From Chiloscyllium plagiosum (lineage: Eukaryota), in the NCBI RefSeq assembly GCF_004010195.1, contig NC_057753.1, positions 7,560,130-7,624,129 of the forward strand: DNA of 64,000 nt. The letters run 5' to 3'. How positions within the stretch are numbered: position 1 is the stretch's first letter; every line of letters begins with the position of its first letter. Below, one piece after another: positions 2,222 through 63,415 of this stretch. Both the position numbers and the translations under genes were made by a program. The notes under the pieces were generated by a model, which had not been told where the DNA came from, searched no databases, and saw only the letters and a list, made by a program, of their open reading frames with translations.

Positions 2222-2316
2222 ACTGATCTGACGAAGAGGCACTGGATGTGAAACGTTAACTCTGATTTCTCTAAACAGATGCTGCCACAGATGCTGAACC
2301 TTTCCAGCAAGTTCAG

Positions 2317-2320
<4 letters not shown>
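2222..2320 (+). mobile_element. PLE terminal fragment with degenerate hammerhead core
   Basis: CTGACGA...GAAACGTT at 2228-2257, followed by the cagatgctgcc...ttccagca tail seen repeatedly in this window. Confidence 0.6.
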
Positions 2321-2375
<55 letters not shown>

Positions 2376-2385
2376 TATATATATT
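2318..2385. repeat. (TA)n microsatellite
   Basis: Direct reading. Confidence 0.97.
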
Positions 2386-2659
2386 TTTGAATAAAGTTAA
2401 ATTCACTGCTGTACACCGAATAAAGTTACCACTTTGATGTTTCTCCCTTTATCAAGTAGCCCTGTGAGCTGGGTGCTGAAACACTCTGTTATCGCCTATG
2501 CGGACCTTAAGCAGGTATGCTTAATATTACCAACATTTAGATCGAGGGGAAACTCCGTCATCGATTCTAGCTGCAATTTCGTACGATGTATGATATGCTC
2601 TAAAACATAGAAGTGTGTTAGGTTCAATGGACAATCAGGTCCATGCTCGTCAACAATGC

Positions 2660-3770
2660 ACTCTCCCCTCCCGGCAAACTTCCCTGCCACCGCAGGAACT
2701 TCAAATCCTCTGCCTACACCTTCGCCCTCACCTCCATTCTAGGCCCCAAAGGACCCTTCTACGTCCATAAAAGTTTCACCTGCACTTCCACGCATGTCAT
2801 TTACTGTATCCGTTGCTCACGATGTAGACTCCTCTACATTGGGGAGACAGGACACCTACTCGCAGAGCGTTTCAGAGAACATATCTGGGCCACCCGCACC
2901 AACCAATCCCAACGTCCGTCGATGAACAGGGCGGCACAGTGGCACAGTGGTTAGCACTGCTGCCTCACATCGCCAGGGACACGGGTTCAATTCCCGCCTC
3001 AGGCAACTGTCTGTGTGGAGTTTGCACATTCTCCCCGTGTCTGCGTGGGTTTCCTCCGGGTGCTCTGATTTCCACCCACAGTCCAAAAACAAATGTGCAG
3101 GTTAGGTGAATTGGCCATGCTAAATTTCCCGTAATGTTAGGTGAAGGGCAAAATGTAAAGAATTGGGTCTGGGTGGGTTCCTCTTCAGAGGGTCGGTGTG
3201 GACTTGTTGGGCCGAAGGGCCTGTTTCCACACAGTAAGCAATCTAATAAATAAATTAATTTATTCTAATAAACAGTTCAACTCCCCCTCCCAGTCAGCGA
3301 AGTACATGCAGGTCCTAGGCCTCCTCCATCTCTGTTCCCTTACCACAAGACGCCTGTCGGAAGAACTGTCATCTTCCACCTCAGGACCCTCCAAACCAAT
3401 GGCATCCATGTGGAATTCACCAGTTTCCTCATTCCCCTCCTCCCAACTTATTCCAGTTCCAAACTTCCAGCTCAGCACCCCCTCACGAATCTTCCCACCT
3501 ATCAAATTTCCTTCCCACCTATCCACTCCCACCTACCACATTTACTCCCATCTTCATCCGCCTACTGCACTCTCAGCTATCTTCTCCCAGCCCGAGTCCC
3601 CTCCTGTTTATCTCTCCACCCACAATTCTTCACAGCCTTATCCCTGATGATGGGTGTTTGCCAGAAATGTCGATTGTTTCTGCTCCTCGGATGCTACCTG
3701 ACCTGCTGTGCTTTTCCAGAACCATGCTCTCGGCTGTGATTTCCAGCATTTGCAGTCCTCAGTTTCGCTT
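2660..3770 (+). mobile_element. PLE 3' part (GIY-YIG endonuclease plus terminal repeat), interrupted by a SINE
   Basis: ORF 2643-2954 has FTCTSTHVIYCIRCSRCRLLYIGETG...ERFREH (GIY-YIG). Homology resumes at ~3270. The tail has CTGATGA...GAAA at 3644-3667. Confidence 0.88.
2929..3250 (+). mobile_element. tRNA-derived SINE, shark HE1/V-SINE type
   Basis: A-box TGGCACAGTGG, B-box GGTTCAATTCC, central gtgtggagtttgcacattctccc domain, and 3' tail gggccgaagggcctgtttcc resembling the local CR1 3' ends. Confidence 0.9.
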
Positions 3771-4449
3771 AATCAATGAAGCGAAATTAACACTGTGCCC
3801 AACAGACAGATGGCTAAAGCTGGTGGAGCGACTGCACTGGGGAGGGATTTAGCCGCACTGCACAACAGCTAAGGACTGAGGAGAGTCTACTTTGGGGGTC
3901 GGGAGGGGATTGAGTCCAACATTAGGATGCATAGAACTCGCGGAGATTCTACACCGAGGAGGGTTGAGCACCACAGCAGACCTGATAAAGCCAGAGGATA
4001 GTCCGCACTGTGGAGGGATTGAATCCACAGCAGGAGGCAAATGGGCACGAAGAAAGGCATGGTACTATTTCAAACTGAAGGATTATGGAGGTTTTGATTA
4101 AAGGAAAACGGTAAAATAATATGCGGCCCAGAGAGTTGTTGTCAGGAAGAGTACTGGATTGCAATCAGAAGCTGATTGATTTAATGAGCACGAAGGGGAT
4201 TTACTTGAATGCCCTGATCCCAGAGCAGAAAGATTCGTGCAAGCCGGAGGAAAGGATATAAATGAGAATATGTATTTAATTATGACAGTCTTATTCATAA
4301 ATATAAACAATGAGAAATGGGAACAAACGATTGTGACGGCTCACAGACTTAAGAGTTGAAGGACAAAGGGCCGTATGGAAGCTGATGTCAGGAAGGAACC
4401 TCGTGCCCCTTTTATCTATAGGAGAGTGAAGACAGGGACTTTGTCTGGA

Positions 4450-9640: not shown

Positions 9641-10255
9641 CAGTGACAGCATCAATAAAACACAAAGTAGTTTATGCTACTAGATTAGCTGGTTGCCCAG
9701 AAGGGAAAATATATTAATCAGATTTGTATTGGGCCAATCAGTTGAAATTATACGCCTAAAAGTACTAAATATCAATCAAGTTTGAATTGAGTATATCGAC
9801 AATCTTAAAAGCCAATGACACAATGCGATCGTCTGTGGAATAAACTGGGGAAAAATTGAACAGTTGAAGGAGAGCAGCCAAGTCCCAGCATGTAAACGGA
9901 TTGCCTGAAAATAGCTCTCTTAAAAGGTACCTTTTTAGAACACGAACCTGTGATGCAGACATCTCCAAGAAGAAAATAGAAGAGCAGTAGGCTGCCTGGT
10001 TTTGAGATAAGAAGTTTCTTTTCTAAATTTTAATTGAGAGTTTTACCAGAGTGGTATTACAGAAAGAAATGTGGAAGGATAGTTAGAGTAAGTACTTGTG
10101 AATAGTTCTTAGTTAATTATTCTCGGCTTAACTGTAAGAAATAAAGTTGTTAACTAGTACTTTAAATAGTTCTTGGCCCGTCGAATTTTTATAGATAAAT
10201 CTCTCCTGTGCTGCTGGTTTAAAAAAAACAGAAGTGCTTACCCCGTGTTGTAACA
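9641..10255 (+). repeat. 5' LTR of copy 1
   Basis: Homologous to 17343-17985 and 27192-27887. Ends TAACA, followed by a degenerate PBS at ~10259-10283. Confidence 0.85.
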
Positions 10256-12215
10256 GTTTTAGGGACTCAGCCGGATTCTGAACAGTCGGATTATAATGTA
10301 TTTGGGAGTGTGAAAATCCCGGCAGATATAAAATCTTCCAGGCTAATGTCCTAGATATTTAAATAAAAAGTAGGTGATGCAATTTGTTTAATTTCGGTGA
10401 CTTGTGTTTGATTAAATTAAATGTGAGATAAATGGGTGTTAACATTGCAAAAGAGATTCTGGGATTTGAAGCTGATTCTCAAATTTGCCAAGAACGTTTA
10501 GAAGGAAAGAAAAAGGGCGTACCTTTACAATTAACAAATAAGTTCGATTTGGGTTGAACCAAGGAAAACGGAAAGCTGAAATTGTAAGGGAGCTACTCAA
10601 ATACTTAGGTGTGTCAGAGAAACAGGCAAGTGCAGTAGAGGTTGAAATACTTACGTTACAATTGATGAAAGTGGAGGTAGAAGCTAGAGAGGAAAGAGAG
10701 AGCGGGAGTGAAAGAGAGAGAGAACAGAGGGAGAGAAGAAAGAGAGAGAGAGAGAGAAGAAAGGGAGAGAGAAAGACAGAGAGAAGACCGAGAAAGAGAG
10801 AGAGAGAGAGATGAGGGAAAAGAAAGAAGAGAGGAAGTTCTCAGCTAAGCAAAAAGAGAGAAAATTTGAAATTGAGAAGTTGCGACTTCTTTAGCAAAGC
10901 TAAATTCACAGATTACAAATACGTCAGAACTCTGCCAGATTTTGTAGCAAAAGATGTGGAAGGTTTCGGTATTTCATTTGAAAAATTGACTAGGCAGATG
11001 GTGTGCTCCGAGGATTCATGGATATTGCTAGTTAAGACTAAACTGGTACGCACAGATAATGAGGTATTTGCCACAGATGAGCTCTGAAGTGATTATGAAA
11101 TGGTCGAACAGGCTATCCTAATTGATTATGAATTGGAATCGGAAGAATATAGACAGCGGTTCAGAAACACAAAAAAGGAACCATGTCAGACATTTTGAGT
11201 TCAAAAGAATTAAAGAAAGTCATTTGATCGATGGGTGCGTCCTTTGAAAAGTGAACAGTTGACGGTCTAAGAGAGATTATCCTGCTAGAGAAGGATGCAC
11301 TTTCAAAGATGATAGGAATTCACATGGAGGAGCAGAAAGTTCAGGAAGTGAGAAGGGCAATAGACTTAGCAGATGAGTGTGCACTGGTACATAAGACAAG
11401 CTTCTGCCAGAACGTCGTCCTATGAGGGACAGAAATTGGGAAAGGGTAGATCCTACACTAAGAAATCAAGAGTAGAGATTACTGTAAGAGTTTACCAGAG
11501 GATGAAAAAGAAGCGCAAGAGGGTGGGAAGGAGGTGAAAAGCCTCAGGTGTTTTCACTGTAGTAAAGTGGAACACGTAAATTCACAGCGCTGGCCGTTAA
11601 AGAATAACGCTGGGAGAAAAGATGTGATAAAAGAAGCTAAGCCAGTGGTATTAATGATGGTAGTAAAGGAGACCTCAAGAACAGCCGATGGACTGCAGCA
11701 GAGTGTACAGCATAGACAGGGTTTGGGTGTGGAAATAGTACCTGATCTCTAAACAGAATTCGCCTCTGTGGAGAAAATGTAACAGAAAGAACAAGTGAAG
11801 AGGACAGAAGTTTTACTTTTGAGAGATACATGATCTTACCAGTCGCCGATAGTGAGGGATGAGTAAATATGCACCCTATTTAATCTGTTACCCGTGAGTG
11901 TGTTAATTTGTGGGTTAGATGGACAGAACCTTAGCGTACTCCTATGTAAGATCAGGTTGGAGTGCCAACATAAGACTAGGTAAGTTCAGTGGGAATGATT
12001 CGCAGAGTGTCACTTCCAGGAATTCAGTTTGCTCTTGGGAATGATTTGGCAGGATCCAAGGTGGGAGTGGCACCCCTTGTTGAGGAGAAGCCCAAGGAAG
12101 ATCAAGAAACTGGGGAGTTAAAACAGATATATTCTGGCATTTTCCCAGACTGTGTGATAACCAGATCCCACTTTCATAAGTCACACCACGAAGCAAAAGA
12201 TGAAGGTGTTCTTTT

Positions 12216-13575: not shown

Positions 13576-13711
13576 GATTTGAAAAAGGGTCAGTTAGACT
13601 CGAAACGTCAGCTCTTTTCTCTCCTTACGGATGCTGCCAGACCATGCTGATATTTTCCAGCATTTTCTCTTTTGGTTTCAGATTCTAGCATCCGCAGAAA
13701 TTTACTTCTAT
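13576..13711 (+). mobile_element. Short PLE-tail insertion with 14-bp TSD
   Basis: ACAGTTTAGAATGA (13562-13575) and ACAGTATAGAATGA (13712-13725) flank it. Degenerate core TTGAAAA...GAAACGTC. Confidence 0.85.
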
Positions 13712-16323: not shown

Positions 16324-16409
16324 AAAATGTGTTGATGGAAAAGCGCAGCAGGTCAGGCAGCATCCAAGGAGCAGGAGAATCGACGTTTCCGGCATGAGCC
16401 TTCTTCAGG
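16324..16409 (-). mobile_element. 86-bp PLE-tail insertion with hammerhead core and 11-bp TSD
   Basis: AAACTGTGCAG (16313-16323) and AAACCGTGCAG (16410-16420). Minus strand reads CTGAAGA A GGC TCAT GCC G GAAA CG TC. Confidence 0.85.
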
Positions 16410-20379: not shown

Positions 20380-21420
20380 CAACATCCATCAGAGAAAACT
20401 GTTCTGTGTCTTCAAAGACATTGTTTGAAGAAGGAATCGTCTGTACAAAGAAGGTTCAGAAACCTGAAGGCGACGGTCGGCTCATTGTTACAGCCTGCTC
20501 CTGCACCACTGAACTTGTTTCTGCATATCTTGAAATCGTCCTTTCTCCCTTCATCCCAGAACTCTCACCTCCGTTATGGACACAACCACCACCCTCCACC
20601 TCCCTCTGAATTTTCATTTCCCCACACCACAACTTCTCATCCAGTCCCCGTATATATCCATCTGCCATGACAAGAAGTACAAAACCTGCGCCGATACTAA
20701 CCCCCCCCCCCCCCTCACGCCCACCACATTCATTCCAAGACCCCAAAGGTTCATTCCACATCTGACAGACATTCACCTGTAATTCCACACACATCATTTT
20801 TTGTGTCCATTTCTCCCAATATTGTCTTCCCTGCGTTGTAAACATAGGATGCCAGCTTTCCGATCGTTTCAGAGAACATCTCTGGGACACCTCAAAGAAA
20901 TAACCTCACCGCCCAGTGGCTGAACGCTTCATATCCCCTCCCACTCAAGTAAAGACATGCGCATCCTGGGCCTTTTCCACCGCCAAAGGCCTATCAGCCG
21001 ACGCCTGCAGGAGGAACGCCTCAACGTCGGAATTTGGACTCTCCACCATTCTGGATCATTCTGAATATCACCAGTTTCCACATTTCGCCTCCCCATCTTA
21101 TCCTAGGTCCAAACATGCAACTCAGCATCACCATCTTGATTGTCCTACCTTTCCAGCTTCCTTCTCACTGATATGCTCCACTCTCCTCTCCAACCTGTCA
21201 ACTTTATCTCACCTTCATCTGCCTATTGCATTCCCAGATACATTCCCACAAGCCCCATCTTCCCCCATTTGTCTTTCAGCCCCCTTTGGACGCTCGCCTC
21301 TTTCCTGATGAAAAGCATATGCTCGGTTATCCTGTTCCTCGGATGCTGCCTGACCGGCTGTTTGTTTCCAGCACCACGTTTTTTGACACTGGAGTATTCA
21401 CAGGCTTTCATATTTTCTCC
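20380..21420 (+). mobile_element. Decayed, internally deleted PLE
   Basis: GRLIVTACSCTTELVS (RT), CHDKKYKTC linker, FTCNSTHIIFC...DRFREH (GIY-YIG), and a tail with CTGATGA at 21305. Confidence 0.8.
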
Positions 21421-27887: not shown

Positions 27888-30457
27888 AGACCAGAATGGT
27901 GCTGGAAAAGCACAGCAGGTCAGGCAGCATCCGAGGAGCAGGAAAATCGTCGTTTTGGGCAGGAGTCCTTTACCAAGAATAGAAGCATGGTGCCTGCAGA
28001 GTGGAGAGATGAATTAGTGGGGCGTGGGCGTGGTGATAAAGTAGCATAGAGTAGCATAGGTAAGTAGGGATGGGGATGGAGGTGATAGGTCACAAAGGAT
28101 TGTGGAGTGGCAGAGGAGATGACCTGGGGGTTGCAGTGAGAGAGAGATTCACTGAGATTCTTGTAGAGAGAGGAGGAAAACTTCTTCAAGGCAGGCATCC
28201 TTGCAAGAGGATTCGGGTTAAAATCAACTAGGTAAAAACAAGAAGCACACTAACCGAGACTCTGATCTCCGGCATCTGCAGTCCTCACTTTCATCTAGTT
28301 CATTTTAACCTTATTGTGAAAACTCTTGCAAGGATGCCTACCCTGAAGAAATTATCCTCCTCTCTCTGGAAAGATCTCAGAAAGTCTCCCTCACTCTCTC
28401 TCTCACTGCAACTCCCAAGTCGTCTCCTCTCCACTGAAACACGTCTGCTCCTCAATCATGTTCTGAAATGGACTGACTACCACAGCCACATCTGCTTCCT
28501 CAGTGCTTGCCTCTGGAACTAACTGATCCCACATGGACTCTGGACTACATTCACACCAGCACTCTTCGAATCTGAACAGGACACCCAGTGCAGACTACAA
28601 ATTCAAAAACACTAGCAACAGTTCTCCTTCAGGATTCTCCACTCCACACTCACAGTCATGCACCACCACCTAACCTCTCTACAGTCAGCTATGCCTAAAC
28701 TGAGGCCATACTCTCACATAACTGCAAAGGACTATTTCTGTACTATATCCTAAGAAGAATTCATACTCTCCAAAAACAACATTTCTACACCACCTCAAAC
28801 ATCAAAAGCTATAAGTACAACTAACTATTATATACCCACCTCCATAACCAGCGTTCCTCAAACATTCCAGAAGCTTTCCCCGGCCTCCGGAACTGCTCAA
28901 CTGCCATTAGCCTCGAGACCGGTACAGGCACCATGCCTATGGCGATCAATAACATCACTTCCCCCTCATCGTGGCCACTTCCACAGCCACTTCTGCCCTG
29001 AAAGATTTCACATGCACTACGTGTGATATCACTTTCGCCCCTCACGTCTTCGCTGACGTAATGTGTTACGCGACTTCTGCCCCCTACTGATATTATCGCC
29101 AGCACTTCCGCCTCCAAATGACTCCACCCCCATTCCCACAACCAAACTCCCAGTCAACTTACAGGCTCCGCCCACACTCCCAGTTCCATACCATGTCCTA
29201 GATGCGAGCCTTGCCGAGTTTTCACCATCTCCCCAGACCTCCCCCACACCGAGGACTAACGATCAGTCCTCAGCAAACGACTTACATTTATCCCCCTCCA
29301 TCCATGCATCAACTATTTCATTACGCTTTGTGATGTCGAGCACTTCTTCCGCCGTCTCCGTGCTTACCTTTTCAATCAGGACTCCTGCCCACCTTCCGAG
29401 GACCCCTGAACCCGCCTTCAACTCACTCCATCCACCTGGGCACACCGCGCTGGCCTATTACCCGCTCTCGATCTCTTCATTTCTAACTGCCGCTGAGACA
29501 TTAAATGCCTCAAAATGTCTACCCCACTCCCCAACTCCAACTTCTCATTCTCACAACACGCAGCCCTCCAGTCCCTCTGCTCCAACCCCAACCTCACCAT
29601 GAAACCAGCGGATAAAGTGTGTGCTGTGGTAGTTTGGCGCACTGACCTCTATATCGCTGAAGCCAGACGCCAACTCGAAGACTCCTCCTCCTTTCACCCC
29701 CTCGACCAGGACCTCACCCCCATCACCAAGCCATCATCTTCCAGACCATACCACAACCTCAGTAACTCAGGAGATCACCCACCCACAGCTTCCAACCTCA
29801 GTTCGGGAGCCGCACACCACCCAATTTTACCTCGCTCCGAAGATTGACAAGCTTGACCACCCCGGCCGACGTATTGTTTCAGCCTGCTCCTGCCCCACCA
29901 AACACATCTCCACCTATCTAGATACTGGCCTACACCCTTTTCCAGGAACTCCCACATACGTCCAAGACACCACCCACGCCTTGCATCTCCTCAAAGATCT
30001 CCGTTTCCCTGGCGCCCAAAGCCTCATTTTCACCATGGACACCCGATCCCTCTACACCTCCATCCGCCATGACCAGTGCCTCCAAGCCCTCTGTTTCTTT
30101 CACTACTGACATCCCCACCAGTACCCTTCCACTGACAATCTCATTCCTTTGGCTAAACTGGTCCTCACTCTTAATAATTTCTCCTTCGTATCTTCCCACT
30201 TCCTCCAGGTGAAAGGGGTAGCTATGGGCACTCGCATGGGCCCCAGTTATGCCTGTCTCTTTGTTGGCTACGTAGAACAGTCCATCTTCCGTAGTTACAC
30301 CGGCACCACTCCCCATTTCGTCCTCCGCTTTCCTGAAGAAGGGCTCCTGCCTGAATTGCCGATTTTCCTGCTTGTCGAATGCTGCCTGACCTACACTGCT
30401 TTTCCAGCACCACTCTAATCTTGACACTGATCTCCAGCATCTGCAATCTCACCTTTG
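27888..30457 (+). mobile_element. PLE with inverted 5' segments, inserted at the LTR/PBS junction
   Basis: RT motifs MKPADK and QVKGVAMGTRMGPSYACLFVG. 28100-28240 is the reverse complement of 28290-28435. Terminal repeats occur at both ends in opposite orientation. Confidence 0.88.
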
Positions 30458-30474
30458 CCCATGTTATACCAGTT

Positions 30475-33400: not shown

Positions 33401-36400
33401 TAATATTTGATCATGAAGTGGGAGGCCCTTTGAAATTAGTTGAAGAAGAATTGACAAGACCAAATTCGGAGATCTCACACTTTAGATTATGTATCAGAGT
33501 TGATGGAGAGATTAAACCGAGTAGGTGAGTTAGCCAAACAGCACCTAAACAGGGAACATTATAGAATGAAACTGGTGGCACGTAAAAGCTCTGAGATTCG
33601 GACGTTTTCCCGAGGGGATAACGTGTTAGTATTATCGCCAGTGGAAGGAGATCCCTTCAAAGGTAGGTTTGCTGGTTCCGATCAAATTGAGAAAAAGTTT
33701 AGTCAGGTGAACTATTTAGTAAAGATGCCAGATAGAAAGAAAATGTATTGAGTATGTCATGTGAACATGTTGAAACCTTATTACACTAGAGAGAAAGAAC
33801 TGGAGAAACAGTTGTTTGTTACTGCCCCGCAGAGTGAGGAATCAAATCCAGACTAGTTGGTTTTTGTGGTGCCTCAAAATAGGTTAAAATAAAGAAGTAC
33901 TGAGGAGTCGGACAGGTTAGTAAGCTGTCTGTCTCAGGAATATATAATGGAGCTGAAAGATTTTTTACTGCAGTACAAGGACATACATGTAAGAATTAGA
34001 TGAGGCAGACTTATGATATTTTCCATGAAGTAGGAGTTGGGAACTCTGATCCGATAAAACAACACCCCGATTGGCTCAATCCTTTCGAAACCAGACAGGC
34101 CGAGAAGGAGCTGGAGGCCATGCTCAACGAGTACCTCATTAAATCAAGACAGAGTGAGTGGAGTTCGCCGATCATGTAAATTCCCAAACCGGACTGAACT
34201 CAAATATTCTGCGTGGATTATTGGAGGTCAAAGCCGTTACAAAATCGGCCTCATATCCAATTCCTAAATTGGAGGACTGTATTGAGACAGTCGGACAAAT
34301 CAGTTACATCACCAAATTGGAATTAATGCGTGGTTCCTGGCCAATACGTTTATCCGTGTCGTGAAAGAAAATGCTGCGTTTGTAACTACAAATGGGCTAT
34401 ATCAGTTTAAAGTGATGCCCTTTGGAATGAAGACCACACCCACAACATTCTAAAGACTCATGTAAAGAGTTTTGTCTGGGTTACCAAACTGTGCCGTCTA
34501 TTTGGACGATGTAGTGATCTTTAGTAAGTCCTAAAAGATCACACGGTACAATTGGCAGAGCTCTTTGAACGACTGTAAACTTTAAAATGGAATTCACTAA
34601 AGCAGACGCCTCGTTCTTGGTACATAATATTGGTTATGGAAGGTTGACGCCACAGACGCAAAGACGAAGGCCATCGAGGAATTTCCACGAACAACCTCGA
34701 AGAAGGAGGTGCTTCGATTATTAGGACTCAGCTGATTCTATCGGAAGTTTTATTCCAGACTTCAGTAGCATAGTGTCACGATCGACAGATTTGCTGAAGA
34801 ACAGGACGATGCCAGGAGGTATTTGACCATTTGAAATCCATATGAACCACCAAAACAGGTTTTGCGACACCAATCGTTTCAAAATCTTTTTTAAAGTTGC
34901 CATTGATGCTCATGATACTGGAGTTGGAGATGTACACCTACCAGAAGACGATGATGGGATTGAACTGCCAGATGGTTTTCTTTCAAAAAAGATGAACTTC
35001 CACGAGAGGAAATACCTCGCAATCGAAACGGAACTATTGAGTTTGGTACTGGCCTTACAGCATTTTAATGTGTATGTCACGTAAAATGTGTTGGAGATAG
35101 TTGTGTAAACTGACCACAATTCTTAGAACGCTTTTAGATAAGAATATGAATCTATTTCATTGGTGTCTAATGTTGCAGATTTTTAATTTAAATATCATAC
35201 ATGTTGCGGGTCAGTAGACGGATGTGTTGTCGCATTTCAAACTGATAGAATTTCGATGAAATTTATATTTAATGCGATATAGCTCTGGGTATATGGGAAG
35301 ACGTATAGGTGACATCCTCAGAGCTTGGGAGCCTCCTGTGAAGCGCTTCTGTGGTGTTTCCTCCGGCATTTATAGTGGCCTGTCCCTGCCGCTTCCGGTT
35401 GTCAGTTTCAGCTGTCCGCTGTAGTGGTCGGTATATTGGGTCCAGGTCAAAAACGGCACTAAAAGAAAAAATGGCCAAACTAACACACAACAAAGAGGAC
35501 ACCACAACACACACCTGGGTTAAAAACCTCTCCCACAGACAGCTCACAGACACGGAAAGAACAATACTGGCCAAGGGACTCAACTACAACCATAGGGACG
35601 CCAAGACAGCAGACTTCCTAGCAGCACTAGAATGCACACTCAGGAACAATGGACTGACAGAAGAGGCACAACAAACAGTGAGACAAAGTATCGTACCCCT
35701 GATAACAAGGAAAAGACAAACACGGAGAGGGAAGCACTAAACTCACTAAGAAACGATAAGAACATAATCCCACTACCAGCAGACAAAGGCAGAATGACGG
35801 TCATCCTGGACAAAGCAGAGTACACCCAAAAAGCACAACAACTACTTGCAGATACCAACACCTACCAAAAGAGGGAGTTTGACCCCACCCCACAGCTCAC
35901 CAATATGATAAACAACACACTGAGGAACCTACAAAAAAACGGAAAGATAACCAGGTCTGACCTACAAAGAATGAAACCTGAAAGCAACAACACCCCCAGA
36001 TTCTATGGACTACCTAAAGTGCACAAACCAGACATCACACTCAGACCCATAGTATCACTACCAGGGACACCATCACACAGACTGGCTAAAGAACTACAGC
36101 AGAAACTGAAACACCTGATCAGCGGATCCAGACACTCTGTACAATCAACACAGGAATTCTTGGACATCATCAGAAATATACACATAGACAAGGAAGAAAC
36201 CATGGTCTCATTCGACGTAACGACACTGTTCACCTCTATTGACAAAGCCCTAGCCAGAGAAACAATAGCCAACCTGCTGAACAGACATAACAGACAACAA
36301 GACGGGGAACCTATCAACAAAGACTGCATACTCAAACTACCGGACCTGTGCCTCACAACACACTTCACATTCAACAAACAGGTATACGAACAAATCAACG

Positions 36401-36446
36401 GAACACCCATGGGCTCACCGATCTCGGGACTCACAGCAGAAGCAGT

Positions 36447-37085
36447 NNNNNNNNNNNNNNNNNNNNNNNNNNNNNNNNNNNNNNNNNNNNNNNNNNNNNN
36501 NNNNNNNNNNNNNNNNNNNNNNNNNNNNNNNNNNNNNNNNNNNNNNNNNNNNNNNNNNNNNNNNNNNNNNNNNNNNNNNNNNNNNNNNNNNNNNNNNNNN
36601 NNNNNNNNNNNNNNNNNNNNNNNNNNNNNNNNNNNNNNNNNNNNNNNNNNNNNNNNNNNNNNNNNNNNNNNNNNNNNNNNNNNNNNNNNNNNNNNNNNNN
36701 NNNNNNNNNNNNNNNNNNNNNNNNNNNNNNNNNNNNNNNNNNNNNNNNNNNNNNNNNNNNNNNNNNNNNNNNNNNNNNNNNNNNNNNNNNNNNNNNNNNN
36801 NNNNNNNNNNNNNNNNNNNNNNNNNNNNNNNNNNNNNNNNNNNNNNNNNNNNNNNNNNNNNNNNNNNNNNNNNNNNNNNNNNNNNNNNNNNNNNNNNNNN
36901 NNNNNNNNNNNNNNNNNNNNNNNNNNNNNNNNNNNNNNNNNNNNNNNNNNNNNNNNNNNNNNNNNNNNNNNNNNNNNNNNNNNNNNNNNNNNNNNNNNNN
37001 NNNNNNNNNNNNNNNNNNNNNNNNNNNNNNNNNNNNNNNNNNNNNNNNNNNNNNNNNNNNNNNNNNNNNNNNNNNNNNNNNNNNN
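36447..37085. other. Assembly gap
   Basis: Run of N. Confidence 1.
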
Positions 37086-37238
37086 TTGTTCCCATTGAAC
37101 GAAATCATGACTCAAAGTTTGTGAGAAGGTACCGGCCACTACAGGGGACAGCTGAAACTGACAACCGGAAGTGGCAGGGACAGGCCACTATAAATGCCGG
37201 AGGAAACACCACAGAAGCGCTTCACAGGAGGCCCCCAA

Positions 37239-37278
37239 GCACTGAGGATGTCACCTAGACAGGGGACGAAACGTTTGC
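37239..37278 (+). ncRNA. Minimal type-I hammerhead ribozyme motif
   Basis: gca CTGAGGA T GTCACCT agac AGGGGAC GAAA CG TT tgc: 3-bp stem I, stem II 6/7 paired, palindromic ACGT in place of stem III. Confidence 0.75.
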
Positions 37279-37639
37279 AACAAAAACTTCCAGCTCGGCG
37301 AACAGAACCACAGCAACGAGCACCCGAACTACAAATCTTCTCACAAACTTTGGAAGCTAAGTTCGAAAATAAGTTCGAGTAAGAACTTGTGAATAGGTCT
37401 GAGTTAATTATCCTCTGTTTAACTGCTGGTTTAAAATCAAGCAGGAGAGCTTACCCGTGTCTTAACAGTTTCACATTATAAACACTCAAGTAGTCAAGGT
37501 TCAAATTGGACATGTATATGTAGAAGCACATACATTGGGTTCAGACCTCAATTAATATTTCTCTCCTGTGTTAACAGTTTACAGTTTAGAAACAAAATGA
37601 AGAATTGAGAACTTGAGCGAGTTAAAGTTAATGTCTTGG

Positions 37640-47524: not shown

Positions 47525-47670
47525 AAACAAAGACCTGTACATGCTGGAGATCTGATACCAAAGCTGTTCTGATGAAGAGTCTCCAGATCTGACATGTTAA
47601 CTTTGCATTTGCTCTTCTGATGCTGCCAGAGCCGATGCGTTTCTTCAGCAATGTATGTTTTTGTTTGTGG
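47525..47670 (+). mobile_element. PLE-tail fragment with degenerate hammerhead core
   Basis: CTGATGAAGAGTC at ~47569 and gatgctgccaga tail, preceded by a short inverted piece. Confidence 0.6.
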
Positions 47671-49493
47671 AAATTCCTGTTCTTGATACGTATAAAACTT
47701 CCCCTGCACTGTTGACTTCGACCTACAACTCCTACCAGTGTTTACTTCACCATGTTGTTTCAAAGCTCCCGATGAACTGTTTCTATGTAATCTGACGGAG
47801 ATGGGCTCTGGCAGGATTAATGGCAGGTTCGGAGACATATTTTTTGAAGCCTGCATCGATGCTGACATCATCGTGCAATCGCTTCCTTGCTATCCCCAGG
47901 AGGAATGGCATGTTTCCCAGTGTATGTACACTTATGGTGGCGGAGTGAAGAAGGACAATGGTCTCCCTACAATACTATTTATTCCTCCAGTTATTGAACA
48001 ATTCAAATCTGGTTTGCATTTTTCATGCAGTTAGGTATCTTCTTGTGCCATGGTATCTTCTGTTGTCATGGTCTCTACCACTGGTCATGGGGGAAGAGGG
48101 AATCCTTCTGAAGCACAAGTCCATACAAGAGGTTGTTCATTATTATGCCCAGAATGCATTGTTGGCGGGCACCACTCGTTTCCCTGCCTGACACGTTAAG
48201 GGACAATCTCACAAACTGTGAAAAGTAGTTCCATTTGAAATGGTTGTTCAGCTGCACCATGGACTTTCAGGTACTGGTTCCAGGGATGCTGGTGAATTTC
48301 GGTAGCTTTGTTAAGGGACGAGCTGCTGTGGGAATGGCACACAGTAACGGGTGGCGGTAAACCAACATCATTCTCGCCACGAGGACTCGAAAGCAAATTA
48401 ATGCCATGATTATTTGAGATCCACACAAGTTCGCTGTGGTAATCTCTTCATGCCGTCGCATCAGCTAGCACTTTTCAGACTATGTCTCCCCTGTGACATT
48501 AAATCATATCGATTTTCCTGAATGTATTCGTCGAATTCCTCTTTTTTTTTGAGAATATAGCACACCATTCCTTTCTCTATCTTTTTTCACCATCAGGACA
48601 GGTCCACTTGGCACTGTTTTATACAGTAAAGTAAGGATTGTACCTGGAATTACTTAACATTGATTGCAGAACCTGCGATATCTCATGTTATTTAGTGTCC
48701 GTAACTTCAAGGGAGCTAACGATTGCAATGAGACAGTGAGCAATTTTCTGTCCTCATAAACTTATATCCTATATCAAAGATATGAATGAATGGAACAAAC
48801 GTTCCAGACTAAATCTCTGGACGAAACTAGGATGGATAGGAATCTAAGTTATCAATGGGAAGTAGAGAACGTGTCAATGAATAACTAATGGCAACAATTG
48901 GTAGATGCAAAATTACATGGGTAATTGGATATGTCAATTTTTCAGGGACAAAACACGACTGTCTATTTCGTACATTGTGAGGTAAAGTATGACAAATTGG
49001 TACACTGTGTACTGGAAGTTTCACTTCTTCATGTTCCGAAATCAGAAATGTTGCTTCAAATCACCTGCTGATGTTCTCAGTGTTTCAATTCCCGTCTATG
49101 CACAGGGCACGTTATAATGCGGTTGGTCGGAATTGGGTGTGATGTGGGCACAGATGTTTTGAACCGTGCATCAAGCAGAAGCTTTTACCAGCATGCCATG
49201 CTTTTCTTCTAAGTGGAGACGTGAAGAGAGTACGAATGGTAGTTTGTTTGCACAGAGACGCTGTGGCTGCTACTGGGAGAGTAGGAATTGCTCAAAGTGA
49301 TATGCTGTGTATGGATGCGCTTCAGTATTAATGCAGTGATAGCGTTGACGGTGCAATCACAAGAATCAGAACATAAAATAAATGCATTGCAGTTGCAACT
49401 GAAATACAAGGTCGTATCACATTCTCAATGCACCTCATAGAAATAGCCCAGATGCCATAAAACTAGATGAAACATTTGTTCATCATGTAAAAA

Positions 49494-49625
49494 CTCTTCA
49501 GGAATCCTGAAGAAGGGCTCATGCCCGAAACGACGATTCTCCTGCTCCTGACCTGCTGCGCTTTTCCAGCAACACATTTTCAGCTCTGATCTCCAGCATC
49601 TGCAGTCGTCACTTTTTCCTAGAAG
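49494..49625 (+). mobile_element. PLE-tail insertion with hammerhead core
   Basis: gaatc CTGAAGA A GGGC TCAT GCCC GAAA CG AC gattc (49502-49539); the conserved U before the cleavage site is A here. Confidence 0.8.
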
Positions 49626-53223: not shown

Positions 53224-53458
53224 CAGGCATGGTGGCTCAGCGGTTAGCGCTGCTGCCTCACAGTACCAGGGTCCCAGGTTCGATTCCAGCCTCGGGTGAC
53301 TGTCTGTGTGGGTTTCCTCCCAGAGTGCAAAGATATGCACATTAAGTGCAATCATCAGAGAGAAATGGGTCTGGGTGGGTTACTCTTCGGAGGGTCAGTG
53401 TGGACTTGTTGGGCCGAAGGGCCTGTTTCCATACTGTAAGGAATCTAATCTAATCTTA
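53224..53458 (+). mobile_element. HE1-type SINE (internal deletions)
   Basis: TGGCTCAGCGG, GGTTCGATTCC, tail with (aatct)n. Confidence 0.9.
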
Positions 53459-53466
53459 AAGAAAAG

Positions 53467-53755
53467 GGGTAGTGCACGGTGGCTCAGTGGTTAGCACTGC
53501 TGCCTCACAGTGTCAGGGACTCGGGTTCAATGCCAGCCTCAGGCGACTGTCTGTGTGGAGTTTGTACATTCTCCCAGTGTCTGAGTGGGTTTCCTCCCAC
53601 AGTCCAAAGATGTGCAGGTTAGGGTGGATTGGCCATGCTAAATTGTCCCAAAATGTTAGCTGAATTAGTCAGGGGTAAATATAGGGTAGGGGAATGGGTT
53701 GGTGTGGACTTTTTGGGCCGAAGGGATTGTTTCCATACTGTAGGGAATCTAAAAA
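53467..53755 (+). mobile_element. HE1-type SINE, in tandem with the previous copy
   Basis: TGGCTCAGTGG, GGTTCAATGCC, central domain and tail. Confidence 0.9.
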
Positions 53756-54299
53756 AAAATTCCTTACTCTTTTCCTGGTAGGTTGTACTTGGCATTGTTT
53801 TTATTTTAATCTTTGCCCAGTCTCAGATAGCTGACACGTTCACTTAATCTTCAGATGAATTTTGACTAATTTTAGTCGAAATTCAGGAATGGCCTAAACT
53901 ATTCCACAATTGTTTTTGTTAACTTCTGATTCTCTGCTTAAGCTTCGGGTAAATTTCCCACAAATGTTTAAGGTGTAAATTCACCTCAGTTTATGTTTCA
54001 GAAGCATTTATGCCCACATTTGATAGTTTTCATGTTGCTTTAACATCAGGGACAGTAGTGCTTGCTGTCAATTTTGACGTAACTGCCACAGCCCCTGTTC
54101 TGAAGCATTTTGTTTTGAATCACAACAAAGGATCTGAATGGTTAAGGCCCAATCTTTGTAAGTCAATGTTTTTCATTCAAGTCTTGTTCTGTCATCCCAG
54201 TCGTTAGGTTAATGAATTCATTTTTAAAATATCCACAATTCCTGTGGCAAAATTAGTCTGGAAACCATCATCACCTCTTTAAAACTGCACACTGGATCG

Positions 54300-54530
54300 A
54301 GGCAAACGTGAGGACTGCAGATGCTGGAGATTAGAGTCAAGATTAGAGTGGCGCTAGAAATGCACAGCAGCTCAGGCAGCATCCGAGGAGCAGGAAAATC
54401 GATGTTTCAGGCAGGAGCCCTTCATCAGGAATCAATGCATTCCTGATGAAGGGCTCTTTCCTGAAACATTGATTTTCCTGCTCCTTGGATGCTGCCTGAG
54501 CTGCTGTGCATTTCCAGCGCCACTCCAATC
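54300..54530. mobile_element. Palindromic PLE-tail element with two opposed hammerhead cores
   Basis: 54341-54432 is an imperfect inverted repeat of 54439-54530. Confidence 0.88.
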
Positions 54531-55051: not shown

Positions 55052-58000
55052 GGTCTGTTGTTGTTTTTAGGTAGTGAGTAGTCCCAGTCTTATCCGAAAG
55101 ATGATATACAAATGCACACAGTTGTTAGTCAATCTGGGTAGTGACAGTCACAGACTGAACCAAAGGTGTTATATAAATGCACATTGTTATTGTTGTCTCT
55201 GAGCAGTGAGCAGTTCCAGTCTGAACCGAAAGTCGCTATCTAAATGCACACTTGTTGTCGGTGGGTAGTGAGCAGTTCCACTCTGAGCCAAACGCTGCTA
55301 TATAAATGCACTGTTTTGTTGTTGTTGTCTCTGGGCAGCGAGCAGTCCCAGCTTGAATCAAAGGGTGCTATATAAATGCACTCTGTTGTTATCTCTGGGT
55401 AGGAAGAACTCCCAGTCTCAATCAAGAGGTGCTATATAAATGCACACTTGTTCTTGTTGTCTGTTGGCAGTGGGCAATCCCAGTCTGAATCAAAAGGCTA
55501 TATCAATGCAGACTGTTGTTGTCTCTGGGCAGTAAAGCAGTCACAGTCTGAACCAAACGGTGATATATAAATGCACAATGTTGTTGCTGTCTCTGTGTAG
55601 TGAGCAGTCCCAGACTGAAGCAGAAGGTGCTATATCAATGCAGACTGTTATTGTCTCTGGGTAGTAAGCAGTTGCAGTCTGAACCAGAAGGTGCTATATA
55701 ACTGCACAATGTTGTTGTTTGCATCTGGGCAGTATGCAGTCCATGTCTGAACCAAAAGGTGCTGTATCAATGCAGACTGATGTTGTTGTTGTAGCAACAA
55801 AAGTTACTACATAAATGCACGCTGTTATTGTTGCCTCTGGGCAGTAAGCAGTCCCCGACTGAAGCAGAAGGAGCTATATCAATGCAGACTGTTGTTGTTG
55901 TTGTCTCTGTGTAGTGAGTAGTACCAGTCTGAAACAGAAGGTGCTATACCAGTGCAGGCTGTTGTTGTCGTCGTCTCTGGGTAGTGAACAGTCACTGTCT
56001 GAACCAAAAGGTGCTATATAAATGCACACTTGTTGTTTGCCTCTGGGCAGTGTGAAGTCCATGTCTGAACCAAAAGGTGCTATATCAATGCAGACTGATG
56101 TCGTTGTTGTCTCTGTGTAGTGAGCAGTCCCAGTCTGAACCAAGAGGTGCTACATAAATGCACGCTGTAGTTGTTGTCTCCGGGCAGTATCAGTTCCAGA
56201 CTGAAGCTGAAGGAGTTATATCAATGCAGACTTGTTGTTGTTGTCTCTGTGTAGTGAGTAGTACCAGTCTGAAACAGAAGGTGCTATATCAATGCACACT
56301 GTTGTTGTTGTCTATGCACTGTGAGCAGTCTCAGTCTGAAGCAAAGGGTGCTATATAAATGCACACTTGCTGTTTGCCTCTGGGCAGTGTGCAGTCCATG
56401 TCAGAACCAAAAGGTGCTATAATCAATGCAGACTGATGTTGTTGTTGTCTCCGGGTATTGAGCAATCCCGGTCTGAACCAAGAGTCGCTATATAAATGCA
56501 CGCTGTTGTTGTTGCCTCTGGGCAGTAAGCAGTCCCAGACTGAAGCATAAGGAGCTATATCAATGCAGACTGTTGTTGTCGTAGTCTCTAGGTAGTGAAC
56601 AGTCACTGCCTGAACTAAAAGGTGCTATATAAATGCACGCCATTGTTGTATCAGAGCAGTAAGCAGTTGCCGTCTGAACCAAACGGTGATATATAAATGC
56701 ATAATGTTGTTGTTGTCTCTAGGCAGTAAGCAGTCCCAGACTGAAGCAGAAGGTGCTATATCAATGCACACTATCGGTATTGTCTCTGGGCAATAAGCAG
56801 TCGCAGTCTGAACCAAACGGTGATATATAAATGCACAATGTTGTTGTTGTTTTTGGGCAGTGAGCAGTCCCAGACTGAAGCAGAAGGTGCTATGTCAATG
56901 CAGACTTGTTGTTGTTGTCTCTGGGCAGTAAGCAGTCACAGTCTGAACAAAACTGTGCAATACCAATACACAGTGTTGTTGTTGTATGTGGGTAGTGAGC
57001 AGTCCCAGTCTGAATCAAAAGGTGCTATACAAATGCACACTGTTGTTGTCTCTGGGCAGTAAGCAGTCCCAAACTGAAGCAGAAGGTGCTATATCAATGC
57101 AGACTTGTTGTTGTTGTCTCTGGACAGTAAGCAGTCTCAGTCTGAATCAAACAGTGATATATAAATGCACAATGTTGTTGTTGTCTGTGGGCAGTGAGCA
57201 GTCCCAGATTGAAGCAGAAGGTGTTATATCAATGCCAACTACTGTTGTTGTTGTCTCAGGGCAGTGTACAGTCCCTGTCTGAACTGAAAGGTGCTATATA
57301 AATGCACAATGTTGTTGTGTCTGGGCAGTGAGCAGTCCCAGTCTGAACAAAACGGTGCTATATAAATACACACTGTTGTTGTTGTGTGTGGGCAGTAAAC
57401 AACCCAGACTGAACCAGAAGTTGCTATATAAATAGACAGTGTTGTTGTCTTTAGGCAGTGGAGCCAACCCAGTCTGAAACAAACGGTGATATAGGAATGC
57501 ACAATGTTGTTGTTGTTGTCTGTGGGCAGTGAGCAGTCCCAGACTGAAGCAAACGGTTCTATATCAATGCAGACTGTTGTTGTTGTCGTCTCTGGGCAGT
57601 GGGCAGTCCATGTCTGAACACAAAGGTGCTATATAAATGCAATGTGTTCTTGTTGTCTCTGGGTAGTGAGCAGTCCCAGTCTGAATCAAAAGGTGCTACA
57701 TAAATGCACACAATGTTGTTGTCTGTGGACAGTGTGCAGTCCCGGTCTGAACCAGAAATTGCTATATCAATGCAGACTGTTTTTGTTGTTCTTGTCTCTG
57801 AGCAGTGAGCAGTCCCAGTCTGAACTAACAGGCGATATATAAATGCACAATCTTGTTGTTGTTGTCTCTGGGTAATGAGCCGTCAATGTCTGAATCAAAA
57901 AGTGCTATATCAATGCACAGTTTTGTTGTTGTTGTCTCTGTGGGCAGTGAGCAGTCCCAGTCTGAACAAAAAGGTGCTATATAAATACACACCGAGTTAT

Positions 58001-58280
58001 TGTTATTGTCTCTGGGCAGTGAGCAGTCCTGTTGTGAACCAAAAGGTGCTATATAAATGCACACTGTTGTTATCATCTCTGGGCAGTGAACAGTCCCAGT
58101 CTGAACCAAAAGGTCTTATATAAATGCACACTTGTTGTTGCATCTTGACAGTCAGCAGTCCCTGTCTGTGCATTTATATAAGACCTTTTGGTTCAGACTG
58201 GGACTGCTCATTGCCCAGAGACAACAGCAACAACAGTGTGCATTGACATAGTACCGTTTGGTTCAATATTGTTGTTGTTG
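55052..58280. repeat. Tandem array of ~60-66 bp units, roughly 50 copies
   Basis: Consensus (gtt)n gtctctgggcagtgagcagtcccagtctgaaccaaaaggtgctatataaatgcacact; unit length varies with (gtt)n. Confidence 0.97.
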
Positions 58281-59844: not shown

Positions 59845-59945
59845 TATGCAAATCTGCTGGAGAAACTCAGCAAGTCTGGCAGCATCTGTGGAGGGAGAAA
59901 CAGGGTCAACATTTTATGTCCAGTGCCCCCTTCTTCAGAAGCTCT
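59845..59945 (-). mobile_element. PLE-tail fragment
   Basis: Antisense CTGAAGAAGG core and cagatgctgccaga tail. Confidence 0.65.
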
Positions 59946-61059: not shown

Positions 61060-61765
61060 GTGATGTGCTACTAAGATGGTATAAAACTCTGGTTAGGCCC
61101 CATTTAGAATACTGTATCTAAATGTGGGCCCCACACCTCAGGAAGGACAGACTGGTACTGGAGTGTATCCAGCGGAGATTCACATGGATGATCCCTGGAA
61201 TGGTAGTCTAGATGAGAGTGGTGCTGGAAAAGCACAACAGGTCAGGCAGCATCTGAGGAGCAGGAAAATTGATATTTCTGGCAAAAGCCCTTCCATCAGG
61301 AATGGGCCTAACATACGATGAATGGCTGAGGAGCCTGGGATTGTATTCATAAGAGTTTAGAAGGTTGAGGGGAGATCTAATAGAAAATTACAAGATAATG
61401 CATGGCTTAGAGAGGGTGGACGCTGGGAATTTGTTTCCATCAGGCAGGGATACTAGGACCCATGGGCACAGCCTTAAAACTAGAGGGGGTCAGTTTAGAA
61501 CGGAAATGAGGAGACATTTCTTCAGCCAGAGAGTGGTGGGCCCTGTGGAATTCATTGCCACAGAGCACAGTGGAGGCCGGGATGTTAAATGTCTTCAAGG
61601 CAGAGATTGATAAATTCTCAATCTCGCAAGGAATTAAGGGATATGGGGAGAGTGAGGGTAAGTGGTGTTAAAATACCCATCAGCCATGATTAAATGGCGG
61701 AGTGGACTCGATGTGTTGAATGGCCTTGCTTCCACTCCTGTTTCTTATGGCCTTATGGTCTTATA
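61060..61765 (+). mobile_element. CR1 3' fragment containing a PLE-tail insertion (~61210-61303, minus strand)
   Basis: YKTLVRPHLEYC, RGDLIENYK, FFSQRVV, tail (cttatgg)n; the insert is antisense PLE terminal repeat. Confidence 0.9.
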
Positions 61766-61844
61766 ACTGTAGAGGGGCAGAGCAACATACAGACTGCAGT
61801 CCATCTGCCCAGTTGCAAATTTCCTTGAGGTAGGCTGTCTCAAA

Positions 61845-62325
61845 ACAAATCAAGCGTAGTTTCTGTGAACATCACGGTTGAGTGACCCATCTTCAGAATT
61901 GATGGGAGCGAGGAAAGGGTTGCTGTTTGTGCAGAAGATAGAGTAATGGCGGGGGGGGGGGGGGGGGTGCAGGGAGAAATAAGCAAGCAATAGGTGGGAA
62001 TAGATCCCAAAGAGAGAGAGAAAAACAGTTGGATCCACAGTGGTGTTGGGGGAGACCAGCTTGGTAAAATAAGGGTTACTCCTGAAACATTGACCTCTCC
62101 ACCTCCTCATGCTACCTGGCATACTATGGTCTTCCAGCCTCCTGTTTGTCTACCTTGGATTCCAGCACCTGCAGTTTTTTTCTTATCTCTAACTTTGATA
62201 AAATATTGTGGACTATTAGGTGTCACTCATACCAAAATGTGAACTCTGATTTTTCACCACAGATGCTGCCAGATTTGCTAAGATTTTCCAGCAATTTGTA
62301 TTTTTGTCTCCAAGTTGCAGCGCTT
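61845..62325. mobile_element. Cluster of degenerate PLE terminal fragments in both orientations
   Basis: Antisense CTGAAGA at 61889-61895, GAAACATTGAC at ~62084, cagatgctgccaga at ~62260. Confidence 0.55.
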
Positions 62326-62606
62326 TTTCATTAGTCACTAAAAATGGGTTGCGTGTGGTAGCAGCCGAAATGAGGAGAAGGTCTAGTGGGGTTTGGGGTA
62401 TGAAGATATGGGAAAAGCTGTTCAATCCCTCAGATTGTTGACTTTCCTATTCATACACCCATACAGATACCTTTTTAAATGTTGTAATTTAATACTCACT
62501 CACTGCTATTGGTTGGACTGATTTGCAGGTGCTGATGTTGGACTGGGGTGCACAAAGTTAAAAATCACACAACACCAAGGTATAGTGCATCAGATTTATT
62601 TGGAAG

Positions 62607-62641
62607 CACTAGCTTTCGGAGCGCTGCTCCTTCATCAGGTA
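62607..62641 (-). ncRNA. Minimal type-I hammerhead ribozyme motif (further family)
   Basis: tac CTGATGA A GGAGC AGC GCTCC GAAA GC TA gtg: 5-bp stem II, palindromic AGCT. Confidence 0.8.
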
Positions 62642-63214
62642 GTCGTGGAGTATTAGCTCAGAGGACACAATTTTTAGCAAAGGTTTACAGTATAGAACAT
62701 AGAAGAATACAGCGCAGTACAGGCCCTTCGGCCCTCGATGTTGCGCCGATCCAAGCCCACCTAACCTACACTAGCCCACTATCCTCCATATGCCTATCCA
62801 ATGCCCGCTTAAATGCCCATAATGAGGGAGAGTCCACCACTGCTACTGGCAGGGCATTCCATGAACTCACGACTCGCTGAGTAAAGAACCTACCCCTAAC
62901 ATCTGTCCCCCCCTTAATTTAAAGCTATGCCCCCTTGTAATAGCTGACTCCATACGTGGAAAAAGATTCTCACTGTCGACCCTATCTAAACCCCTAATCA
63001 TCTTGTACACCTCTATCAAGTCACCCCTAAACCTTCTTTTCTCCAAGGAAAACAACCCCAAGTGCCTCAGCCTTTCCTCATACGATGTTCCTACCATACC
63101 AGGCAACATCCTGGTAAACCTCCTCTGCACCCGTTCCAGTGCCTCCACATCCTTCCTATAGTATGGTGACCAAAACTGCACACAATACTCCAGATGTGGC
63201 CGCACCAGAGTCTT

Positions 63215-63415
63215 GGATCAGTGGTGCTGGAAGAGCACAGCAATTCAGGCAGCATCCGAGGACAGGCAAAATCGACGTTTCGGGCAAAAGCCCTTCATCA
63301 GGAATCCTGAAACGTCGATTTTGCCTGTCCTCGGATGCTGCCTGAATTGCTGTGCTCTTCCAGCACCACTGATCCAGAATCTGGTTTCCAGCATCTGCAG
63401 TCATTGTTTTTACCT
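63215..63415. mobile_element. 201-bp fold-back PLE-tail insertion with perfect 14-bp TSD
   Basis: CGCACCAGAGTCTT at 63201-63214 and 63416-63429. Inverted arms 63215-63281 and 63309-63375. Confidence 0.95.
63269..63305 (-). ncRNA. Minimal type-I hammerhead ribozyme motif, intact core
   Basis: attc CTGATGA A GGGC TTTT GCCC GAAA CG TC gatt. Confidence 0.8.

What the first reader, a model, noticed from the sequence alone, without database searches (positions are those of the whole stretch)
2222..63415. Dispersed hammerhead-bearing mini-elements (86-230 bp) that appear to insert as discrete units
Seen: more than a dozen short pieces carry a complete or partial CTGANGA-N-stem II-GAAA-(CG/GC)-TH core, at about 2228, 3644, 13579, 16400, 21305, 30333, 37242, 43788, 47569, 49507, 54425, 54443, 59935, 61295, 62635 and 63298. 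At least four different stem-II sequences occur, and pairing is preserved in the best copies (GGGC/GCCC, GGAGC/GCTCC, GTCACCT/AGGGGAC). Four pieces have their own TSDs (14, 11, 12 and 14 bp at 13576, 16324, 43772 and 63215) and no coding sequence, and several begin only a few bases upstream of the core. Established: PLE terminal repeats carry minimal hammerheads with a palindromic stem III, proposed to cleave as dimers. Inference: these may be a non-autonomous, retrozyme/SINE-like population mobilised by PLE RT-endonuclease rather than random truncations. I do not know of a description in sharks but cannot exclude one.
Basis: partly seen in the sequence, partly recalled or inferred. Interest (0 to 1): 0.75.

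Follow-up and report, generated by a model that had tools for sequence, protein, structure and literature searches.

The report
Hammerhead-headed stubs of Penelope retroelements
The short pieces are real inserts made of the ribozyme-bearing end module of Penelope-like jumping genes in a shark-like genome; most begin a few bases in front of the hammerhead motif rather than at its cut site, likely because the enzyme ran off the front end of the element's RNA, so they are probably dead by-products of a known element and not a separate mobile family.

Summary
Real, mostly known. All 16 listed sites lie in end modules of Penelope-like elements (PLEs) from four families. Only 3 of 16 keep a complete hammerhead core (0 in 100 shuffles). 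The four TSDs are confirmed, three with empty-site paralogues. At least 4 of 16 are attached to PLE coding sequence, so they are not mini-elements.

Truncation is not random: 9 of 14 scorable insertions start within -6..+4 of the core (P<=5e-4), about 30 nt upstream of the cut site, whichever of two 3' ends they have. A separate lineage is not supported: short and long copies interleave, cores decay at the background rate, and no tandem units exist.

Best model: reverse transcription starts internally at the tail sites of the first module of a PLE transcript and runs off its 5' end. Dispersed single PLE hammerheads are published (PMC4209133); I found no paper on the fixed 5' edge. This scan has noted the same pattern repeatedly on other pieces of this genome.

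The parts
2225..2312 (+). Family B module; core letters intact, stem II decayed; 5' end not scorable
2679..3765 (+). Long family A copy: GIY-YIG region (interrupted by a ~320-bp dispersed repeat at 2934-3250), 3' UTR, module at 3640-3765 with tail
13576..13711 (+). Family B short insert, 136 bp, 14-bp TSD, starts at -3; U3/A8 core variant, 5-bp stem II; empty site in Gypsy paralogue near 33560
16324..16409 (-). Family A short insert, 86 bp, no tail, 11-bp TSD, starts at -1..-3; empty site near 34490
20451..21385 (+). Long family A copy with RT piece, EN piece and 3' UTR; module 21301-21385 lacks GAAA
27887..28245 (-). Inverted arm of a complex insertion: piece of the 5' region, ~130 bp of 3' UTR, module without tail (27887-27979)
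28246..30329 (+). 5' part of a family A PLE: tail, 5' region, decayed RT ORF ending just before the YIDD motif; shows the module tail leads into the ORF
30330..30459 (+). Family A module with tail, starting at -3, joined directly to ORF-internal sequence
35303..37352 (+). Family C PLE: 131-bp inverted arm (95%), RT ORF with assembly gap, complete hammerhead at 37242; the 3' module encodes residues 1-55 of protein P0001
43772..43889 (+). Family A-type short insert, 118 bp, 12-bp TSD, starts near +4 (no CTGANGA)
47544..47670 (+). Family B module preceded by a short inverted tail piece; module starts at -3..-6; GAAA mutated
49493..49620 (+). Family A short copy with tail and a ~8-bp fold-back centred at -2; no TSD found
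54299..54530 (.). Head-to-head pair (54428- with tail, 54443+ without), both starting at -4, 93% identical; candidate decayed TSD
59850..59941 (-). Family B module, GAAA mutated
61207..61305 (-). Family A short insert in a CR1-type LINE, no tail, starts at -4..-6; TSD doubtful (paralogue spacing fits a blunt joint)
62062..62312 (+).
62520..62691 (-). Family D module with complete hammerhead at 62638; about 50 bp upstream, then cut by a CR1-type LINE; 3' end approximate
63215..63415 (.). Fold-back insert, 201 bp, 14-bp TSD: minus arm with complete hammerhead (63301) starting at -4, plus arm with tail; empty site in CR1 paralogue near 46660

Best explanation
The short pieces are inserted copies of the hammerhead-plus-tail end module of protein-coding Penelope-like elements, likely made when the element's own reverse transcriptase starts internally at the tail sites of the first module in the transcript and runs off the RNA's 5' end a few bases before the hammerhead core. 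SHOWN: the module occurs at the 3' end of ORF-bearing copies, and its tail leads into the ORF at the 5' end; short copies are TSD-flanked insertions; they have two 3' ends (about +85-93 without tail, +121-133 with tail) but one 5' edge (-6..+4), about 30 nt upstream of the predicted cut site. FROM LITERATURE: a lizard PLE protein nicks DNA, starts reverse transcription at two internal sites that match the tail ends, uses uncleaved RNA, and needs RNA about 55 nt beyond those sites (PMC11167929). INFERRED: the RNA begins at the front of helix I; copying from the second (3') module gives the long truncated copies, copying from the first gives the 86-136-bp stubs; on reaching the RNA end the enzyme joins the target, folds back (49507, 544xx, 632xx) or jumps template (30330). 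The stubs would lack the downstream RNA needed for reuse and so would be dead on arrival.
For: Tail piece at 28246 leads into an RT ORF 67-75% identical to shark PLE proteins P0121/P0122. The family C module encodes residues 1-55 of P0001 at 89% identity. 3644 and 21305 share EN and UTR sequence upstream of the module. 9 of 14 scorable insertions start in an 11-nt window, P<=4.5e-4 over nine exponential-truncation nulls; the shared 5' edge across both 3'-end classes argues against a fixed processivity length. Contigs of three public runs clipped at 27961 (866, 924 and 157 contigs) agree through the -4 base and then give different consensus letters in each run. Summed word depth peaks at 12.1 million in the module against at most 0.11 million in the adjacent UTR (run X1). 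Short and long labels are not clustered on the tree. Core divergence 10 of 102 equals downstream 48 of 488.
Against: No RNA 5' end was observed. In Drosophila Penelope the start site (371) lies well upstream of the intron end (491) where helix I begins (PMC2377424, PMC4209133), so a start at helix I is not the rule. The initiator-like motif at -4 of copy 27975 is uninformative (5 such motifs in 130 nt; absent at -4 in 3644 and 21305). The depth step is confounded: the reference copy is diverged, UTRs differ by subfamily, and the tool says depth is no copy number. In X1 the loose-end consensus continues GAGG, which may be a long-copy UTR of another subfamily. The tree has 129 columns, 8 of 11 inner branches open, AU p=0.043 only. 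Boundaries were read by eye; four copies (2228, 59938, 62071, 62235) were dropped as unscorable, and the 63306 arm may start at +17.
Confidence: 0.6

Rival explanations
1. Non-autonomous SINE/retrozyme-like lineages: short master copies are themselves transcribed and recopied by PLE proteins.
For: Discrete size, TSDs and fixed 5' edge; module far more abundant than neighbouring PLE sequence; 16408 and 49507 are both short and 91% identical; an internal pLTR promoter is reported for Penelope (PMC2377424); solo retrozyme monomers are reported in vertebrates (10.64898/2026.07.22.740005).
Against: Short copies are not one clade (AU p=0.043) and the labels are unclustered; same edge in two families; no tandem units; ends not at the cut site; by analogy with PMC11167929 the stubs lack the RNA downstream of the initiation sites.
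Confidence: 0.17
2. Same PLE by-products, but the fixed edge is set by something other than the RNA 5' end: endonuclease trimming at the ATT just before the core, a protein or structure block, or an antisense template whose 3' end lies there.
For: The lizard PLE endonuclease prefers ATT near its ORF-pLTR junction (PMC11167929) and family A stubs start ATTCC; head-to-head palindromes were read as self-priming on an antisense template (PMC3846280 passage).
Against: Family B 47569 has GTT, not ATT, at the edge; a hammerhead-fold block would stop the enzyme at the fold's 3' side, not after it; sense-strand initiation at tail sites was shown in vitro (PMC11167929).
Confidence: 0.17
3. Random 5' truncation, with clustering an artefact of searching for hammerhead cores.
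For: Heavy 5' truncation is typical of PLEs (PMC8557442 passages); Cervera and De la Pena read single motifs as truncated PLEs (PMC4209133).
Against: The profile search does not need the core and finds a 49-bp tail piece, yet finds no free copy starting between +5 and +60 except possibly the 63306 arm; P<=4.5e-4.
Confidence: 0.05
4. Ends made by hammerhead self-cleavage (monomer or dimer), as in circular-RNA retrozymes.
For: Complete cores with palindromic stem III in 3 copies.
Against: 0 of 14 scored 5' ends and none of the 3' ends lie at the predicted cut site (about +28); copies contain the whole ribozyme with 60-105 nt beyond the cut.
Confidence: 0.01

Closest known systems
Minimal hammerheads (min-HHR) of metazoan Penelope-like elements (Cervera and De la Pena 2014, PMC4209133; parts 1-2 of 4 read)
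   Same: Type I core, unpaired base before stem II, G10.1-C11.1 pair, palindromic 15.2-16.2; several families per genome; mostly single dispersed motifs (about 4,000 in coelacanth, 9,000 in Xenopus) read as truncated PLEs; opposite-strand pairs nearby.
   Different: Sharks are not named in the parts read; no TSD or end mapping there; density here is 18 module-bearing loci in 63 kb (about 3.5% of bases).
Canonical EN+ PLE insertions with inverted pLTR and 30-40 bp tail (PMC3846280, PMC8557442; passages read)
   Same: Head-to-head arms, tail on one arm only, TSDs of about 9-14 bp or microhomology joints, solo pLTRs.
   Different: Here most inserts are only the 86-136-bp module, with one fixed 5' edge; in rotifers several solo pLTRs lacked TSDs and were ascribed to recombination.
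PAc Poseidon element of Anolis (Frangieh et al. 2024, PMC11167929; main text read)
   Same: [quoted passage not shown]
   Different: No report there of genomic stubs with a fixed 5' edge; in family A the recognisable RT ORF lies well downstream of the tail.
Animal non-LTR retrozymes (PMC7761336 passages; bioRxiv 10.64898/2026.07.22.740005, parts 1-3 of 5 read)
   Same: Type I hammerhead, non-coding, pLTR-derived, solo monomers, found in one cartilaginous fish.
   Different: Defined by tandem units each with a hammerhead and cut-site-to-cut-site circular RNA; neither is seen here.

Membership tests
EN+ Penelope-like element | Module linked to a PLE-type RT ORF | tested here: met
   Family A 28246-30329 and family C 35396-36447 match shark PLE-type RT proteins at 67-88%. 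Families B and D have no linked ORF in the window; B is homologous to A.
EN+ Penelope-like element | C-terminal GIY-YIG endonuclease upstream of the 3' module | tested here: met
   Frame 2691 reads VIYCIRC...LYIGET...FREH; weak tblastn hit to P0008 599-634, E 6e-4; motif name recalled.
EN+ Penelope-like element | pLTR with optional 30-40 bp tail, inverted arms, TSD | tested here: met
Neptune clade (family A) | Cys-rich linker CX2-5CxxC before the EN | tested here: inconclusive
   At 2679-2720 only the first Cys is intact; the other two positions read F and S; no RT tree built.
Minimal type I hammerhead | Core, stem II, palindromic 15.2-16.2, NUH | tested here: met
   3 of 16 listed copies complete; helix I only 2-3 bp in families A, C, D.
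Minimal type I hammerhead | Self-cleavage as monomer or dimer | not testable with these tools
   Folding gives stem II but not a full hammerhead as the lowest-energy fold, which says little.
Non-LTR retrozyme | Tandem units each with a hammerhead | tested here: not met
   None of 6 TRF rows overlaps a module.
Non-LTR retrozyme | Unit bounded by the cleavage site; circular RNA | tested here: not met
   Insert ends are not at the cut site; circular RNA itself not testable.
SINE-like non-autonomous family | Own lineage from short master copies | tested here: inconclusive
   One short clade rejected at p=0.043 on 11 family A copies; several small lineages not excluded.
SINE-like non-autonomous family | Independent transcription of the short unit | not testable with these tools
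   The one raw RNA run laid no reads.

The most novel reading that the evidence does not exclude
The dominant product of PLE retrotransposition in sharks is a strong-stop-like run-off cDNA of the RNA's first 90-135 bases, so a very large number of stubs record the transcript's start at hammerhead helix I and both RT initiation sites to the base; and some stubs that kept the internal promoter have become self-propagating hammerhead-headed SINEs.
Probability: 0.2. Interest if true: 0.6.

Novelty: new member of a known kind. Interest (0 to 1): 0.3.

Why it matters
PLE replication and the role of their hammerheads are still open questions. The inserts show that uncleaved RNA is what gets copied in this genome, in line with the one in-vitro study. 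A fixed 5' edge at helix I gives a cheap, precise prediction for the transcript start and a possible route by which pLTR stubs (and later retrozymes) arise. It also matters for repeat annotation, as the modules fill about 3.5% of this window. It is not a new class of element.

Tried and rejected
No whole genome is held, so no genome-wide table of ends could be made. Rfam gave no hammerhead hit, only weak miRNA matches to the fold-backs far below their thresholds, rejected as hairpin artefacts. Pattern scans of metagenome, prokaryote genome (51) and viral (52) contigs found 0 loci. Run search: no RNA holder listed; raw single-cell run X22 laid 0 reads, so no test of expression or start site; X23 is contigs, RNA only by guess. 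Candidate TSDs at 20283/21395 (150 bp outside PLE homology), 61195/61297 (paralogue spacing fits no duplication) and all 7-8-bp repeats (within the null) were rejected; 544xx and the 27887-30459 complex have only decayed candidates. An initiator motif at -4 was rejected as evidence. A splice acceptor at the edge was rejected: no AG precedes it in the three long copies and TSDs abut the module. An upstream alternative cleavage site was rejected by inspection (no G-U-H). Lunse et al. 2017 on dimer cleavage is not held; seen only as a citation. Paper searches showed no paper on a fixed 5' edge of PLE stubs or on shark PLE hammerheads in detail; subscription papers, Repbase/Dfam entries and the 2026 preprint's supplements (which list its cartilaginous-fish families) were not seen and may bear on novelty.
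Full report
Setting. The window is repeat-rich vertebrate DNA (42% GC, 1,139 N). The closest named relatives of its PLE proteins are from the shark Chiloscyllium punctatum (88% and 69-75% identity). No whole genome was available, so the tests rest on the window, public-run contigs and papers. Offsets below count from the C of CTGANGA as 0; the predicted cut site is at about +28.

Observation. All 16 listed sites lie in hammerhead-type modules. A strict core occurs 3 times against 0 in 100 shuffles; the other 13 listed copies are mutated or partial. The four TSDs are as stated. The inserts at 13576 and 16324 are absent from the paralogous Gypsy copy and that at 63215 from a paralogous CR1 copy. 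These are true insertions of 136, 86 and 201 bp.

What the module is. It is the terminal repeat of coding PLEs. At 3644 and 21305 it follows shared endonuclease and 3' UTR sequence. At 28246 the tail of the same module leads into a decayed RT ORF matching P0121/P0122, so the module also heads the element. In family C the 3' module encodes residues 1-55 of P0001, with an ATG at the start of stem II as in the Anolis element PAc (PMC11167929). So at least 4 of the 16 listed sites are attached to PLE coding sequence. Families B and D have no linked ORF in the window.

Ends. 3' ends fall in two classes, about +85-93 and +121-133; the 35-40-bp difference matches the published PLE tail (PMC8557442, PMC3846280 passages). 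Fourteen independent insertions had scorable 5' ends. Nine start at -6..+4 (13576, 16409, 30330, 43772, 47566, 49503, 544xx, 61305, 63305) and five run on for 50 bp or more (3644, 21305, 27975, 37242, 62638). None starts at the cut site. Four decayed copies were dropped, and the 63306 arm is ambiguous (-1 plus a deletion, or +17). Under exponential truncation with means of 5-1000 nt, such a cluster had P<=4.5e-4 (end positions approximate, read by eye). Both 3' classes share the edge, so it is not a processivity length.

Beyond the window. Laying four public runs on 27866-28300 recruited 69,659 (X1), 91,360 (X9, a related organism), 0 (X22) and 7,897 (X23) records. Among the listed loose ends (18 shown, 898 not shown), those clipped at 27961 agree on the intact family core through the -4 base and then differ between runs. 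Summed word depth peaks at 12.1 million in the module against at most 0.11 million in the 3' UTR and 0.20 million in the 5'-region piece (X1). Both results fit a genome-wide step at the edge, but they are only suggestive: the reference copy is diverged, UTRs vary by subfamily (3644 against 21305 about 67%), and depth is not copy number.

Separate lineage? A tree of 11 family A copies with 3 family B rows needs 3 changes between short and long, no fewer than shuffled labels, and one short-copy clade is rejected at p-AU 0.043. Support is weak (8 of 11 inner branches open; one long branch). Core positions have decayed as fast as the 50 bases downstream (10 of 102 against 48 of 488). No tandem array contains a module, so the published retrozyme criterion of two or more hammerhead-bearing units (10.64898/2026.07.22.740005) is not met.

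Mechanism. PAc protein starts reverse transcription at two internal sites that match genomic tail ends, works on uncleaved RNA and needs the first 172 nt of the ORF, about 55 nt past those sites (PMC11167929). A PLE transcript holds the module twice. I infer that starting in the first module and running off an RNA 5' end at helix I gives the stubs, and that the free end explains the fold-backs at 49507, 544xx and 632xx and the jump into ORF sequence at 30330. Stubs end at the initiation sites and would lack the downstream RNA, so they should not move again. The RNA start is not shown: no RNA reads were obtained, the initiator-like motif is uninformative, and Drosophila Penelope starts further upstream (PMC2377424, parts 2-3 of 4 read). 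I put about 0.8 on 'PLE by-product', 0.6 on run-off specifically and 0.17 on self-propagating short lineages.

Novelty. Thousands of dispersed single minimal hammerheads from truncated PLEs, including opposite-strand pairs, are published for other vertebrates (PMC4209133), as are inverted pLTR-plus-tail insertions. Retrozymes are reported in one cartilaginous fish. My six paper searches found nothing on the fixed 5' edge, which is the one feature worth following. Earlier notes of this scan (156 notes in this genome fit the look-up) report the same pattern on other pieces, and some suggest the RNA begins there; they are not independent evidence. Verdict: real, a new member of a known kind, interest 0.3.

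Noticed in passing
window 13579: Core reads TTGAAAA, the U3/A8 pair that PMC4209133 reports as a covarying variant, with a 5-bp stem II; could equally be two chance transitions.
   Followed up: partly
window 55055-58168: 67-bp satellite, about 47 copies, with one inverted unit at 58168-58265; no CTGANGA...GAAA hit inside it.
   Followed up: no
window 18115-20185 (-): A further decayed PLE (37% to P0001) interrupted by a CR1-type LINE; no hammerhead end found for it.
   Followed up: partly
window 27887-30463: Complex PLE insertion sitting at the end of a Gypsy LTR, with at least two internal jumps and a decayed ~13-bp candidate TSD.
   Followed up: partly
window 9676-17978 and 27203-35212: Two old paralogous Gypsy-type LTR retrotransposon copies, 70-79% identical, which served as empty-site controls.
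   Followed up: partly
window 2934-3250, 12192-12455, 25021-25303, 53227-53776: A dispersed ~250-320-bp repeat family, probably a SINE; not identified.
   Followed up: no
window 47544-47565: Short inverted copy of the family B tail directly in front of the module, the mirror of the usual arrangement.
   Followed up: partly
window 18476-18887 and 62692-63093: CR1-type LINE 3' ends 91% identical; each interrupts a PLE copy.
   Followed up: no
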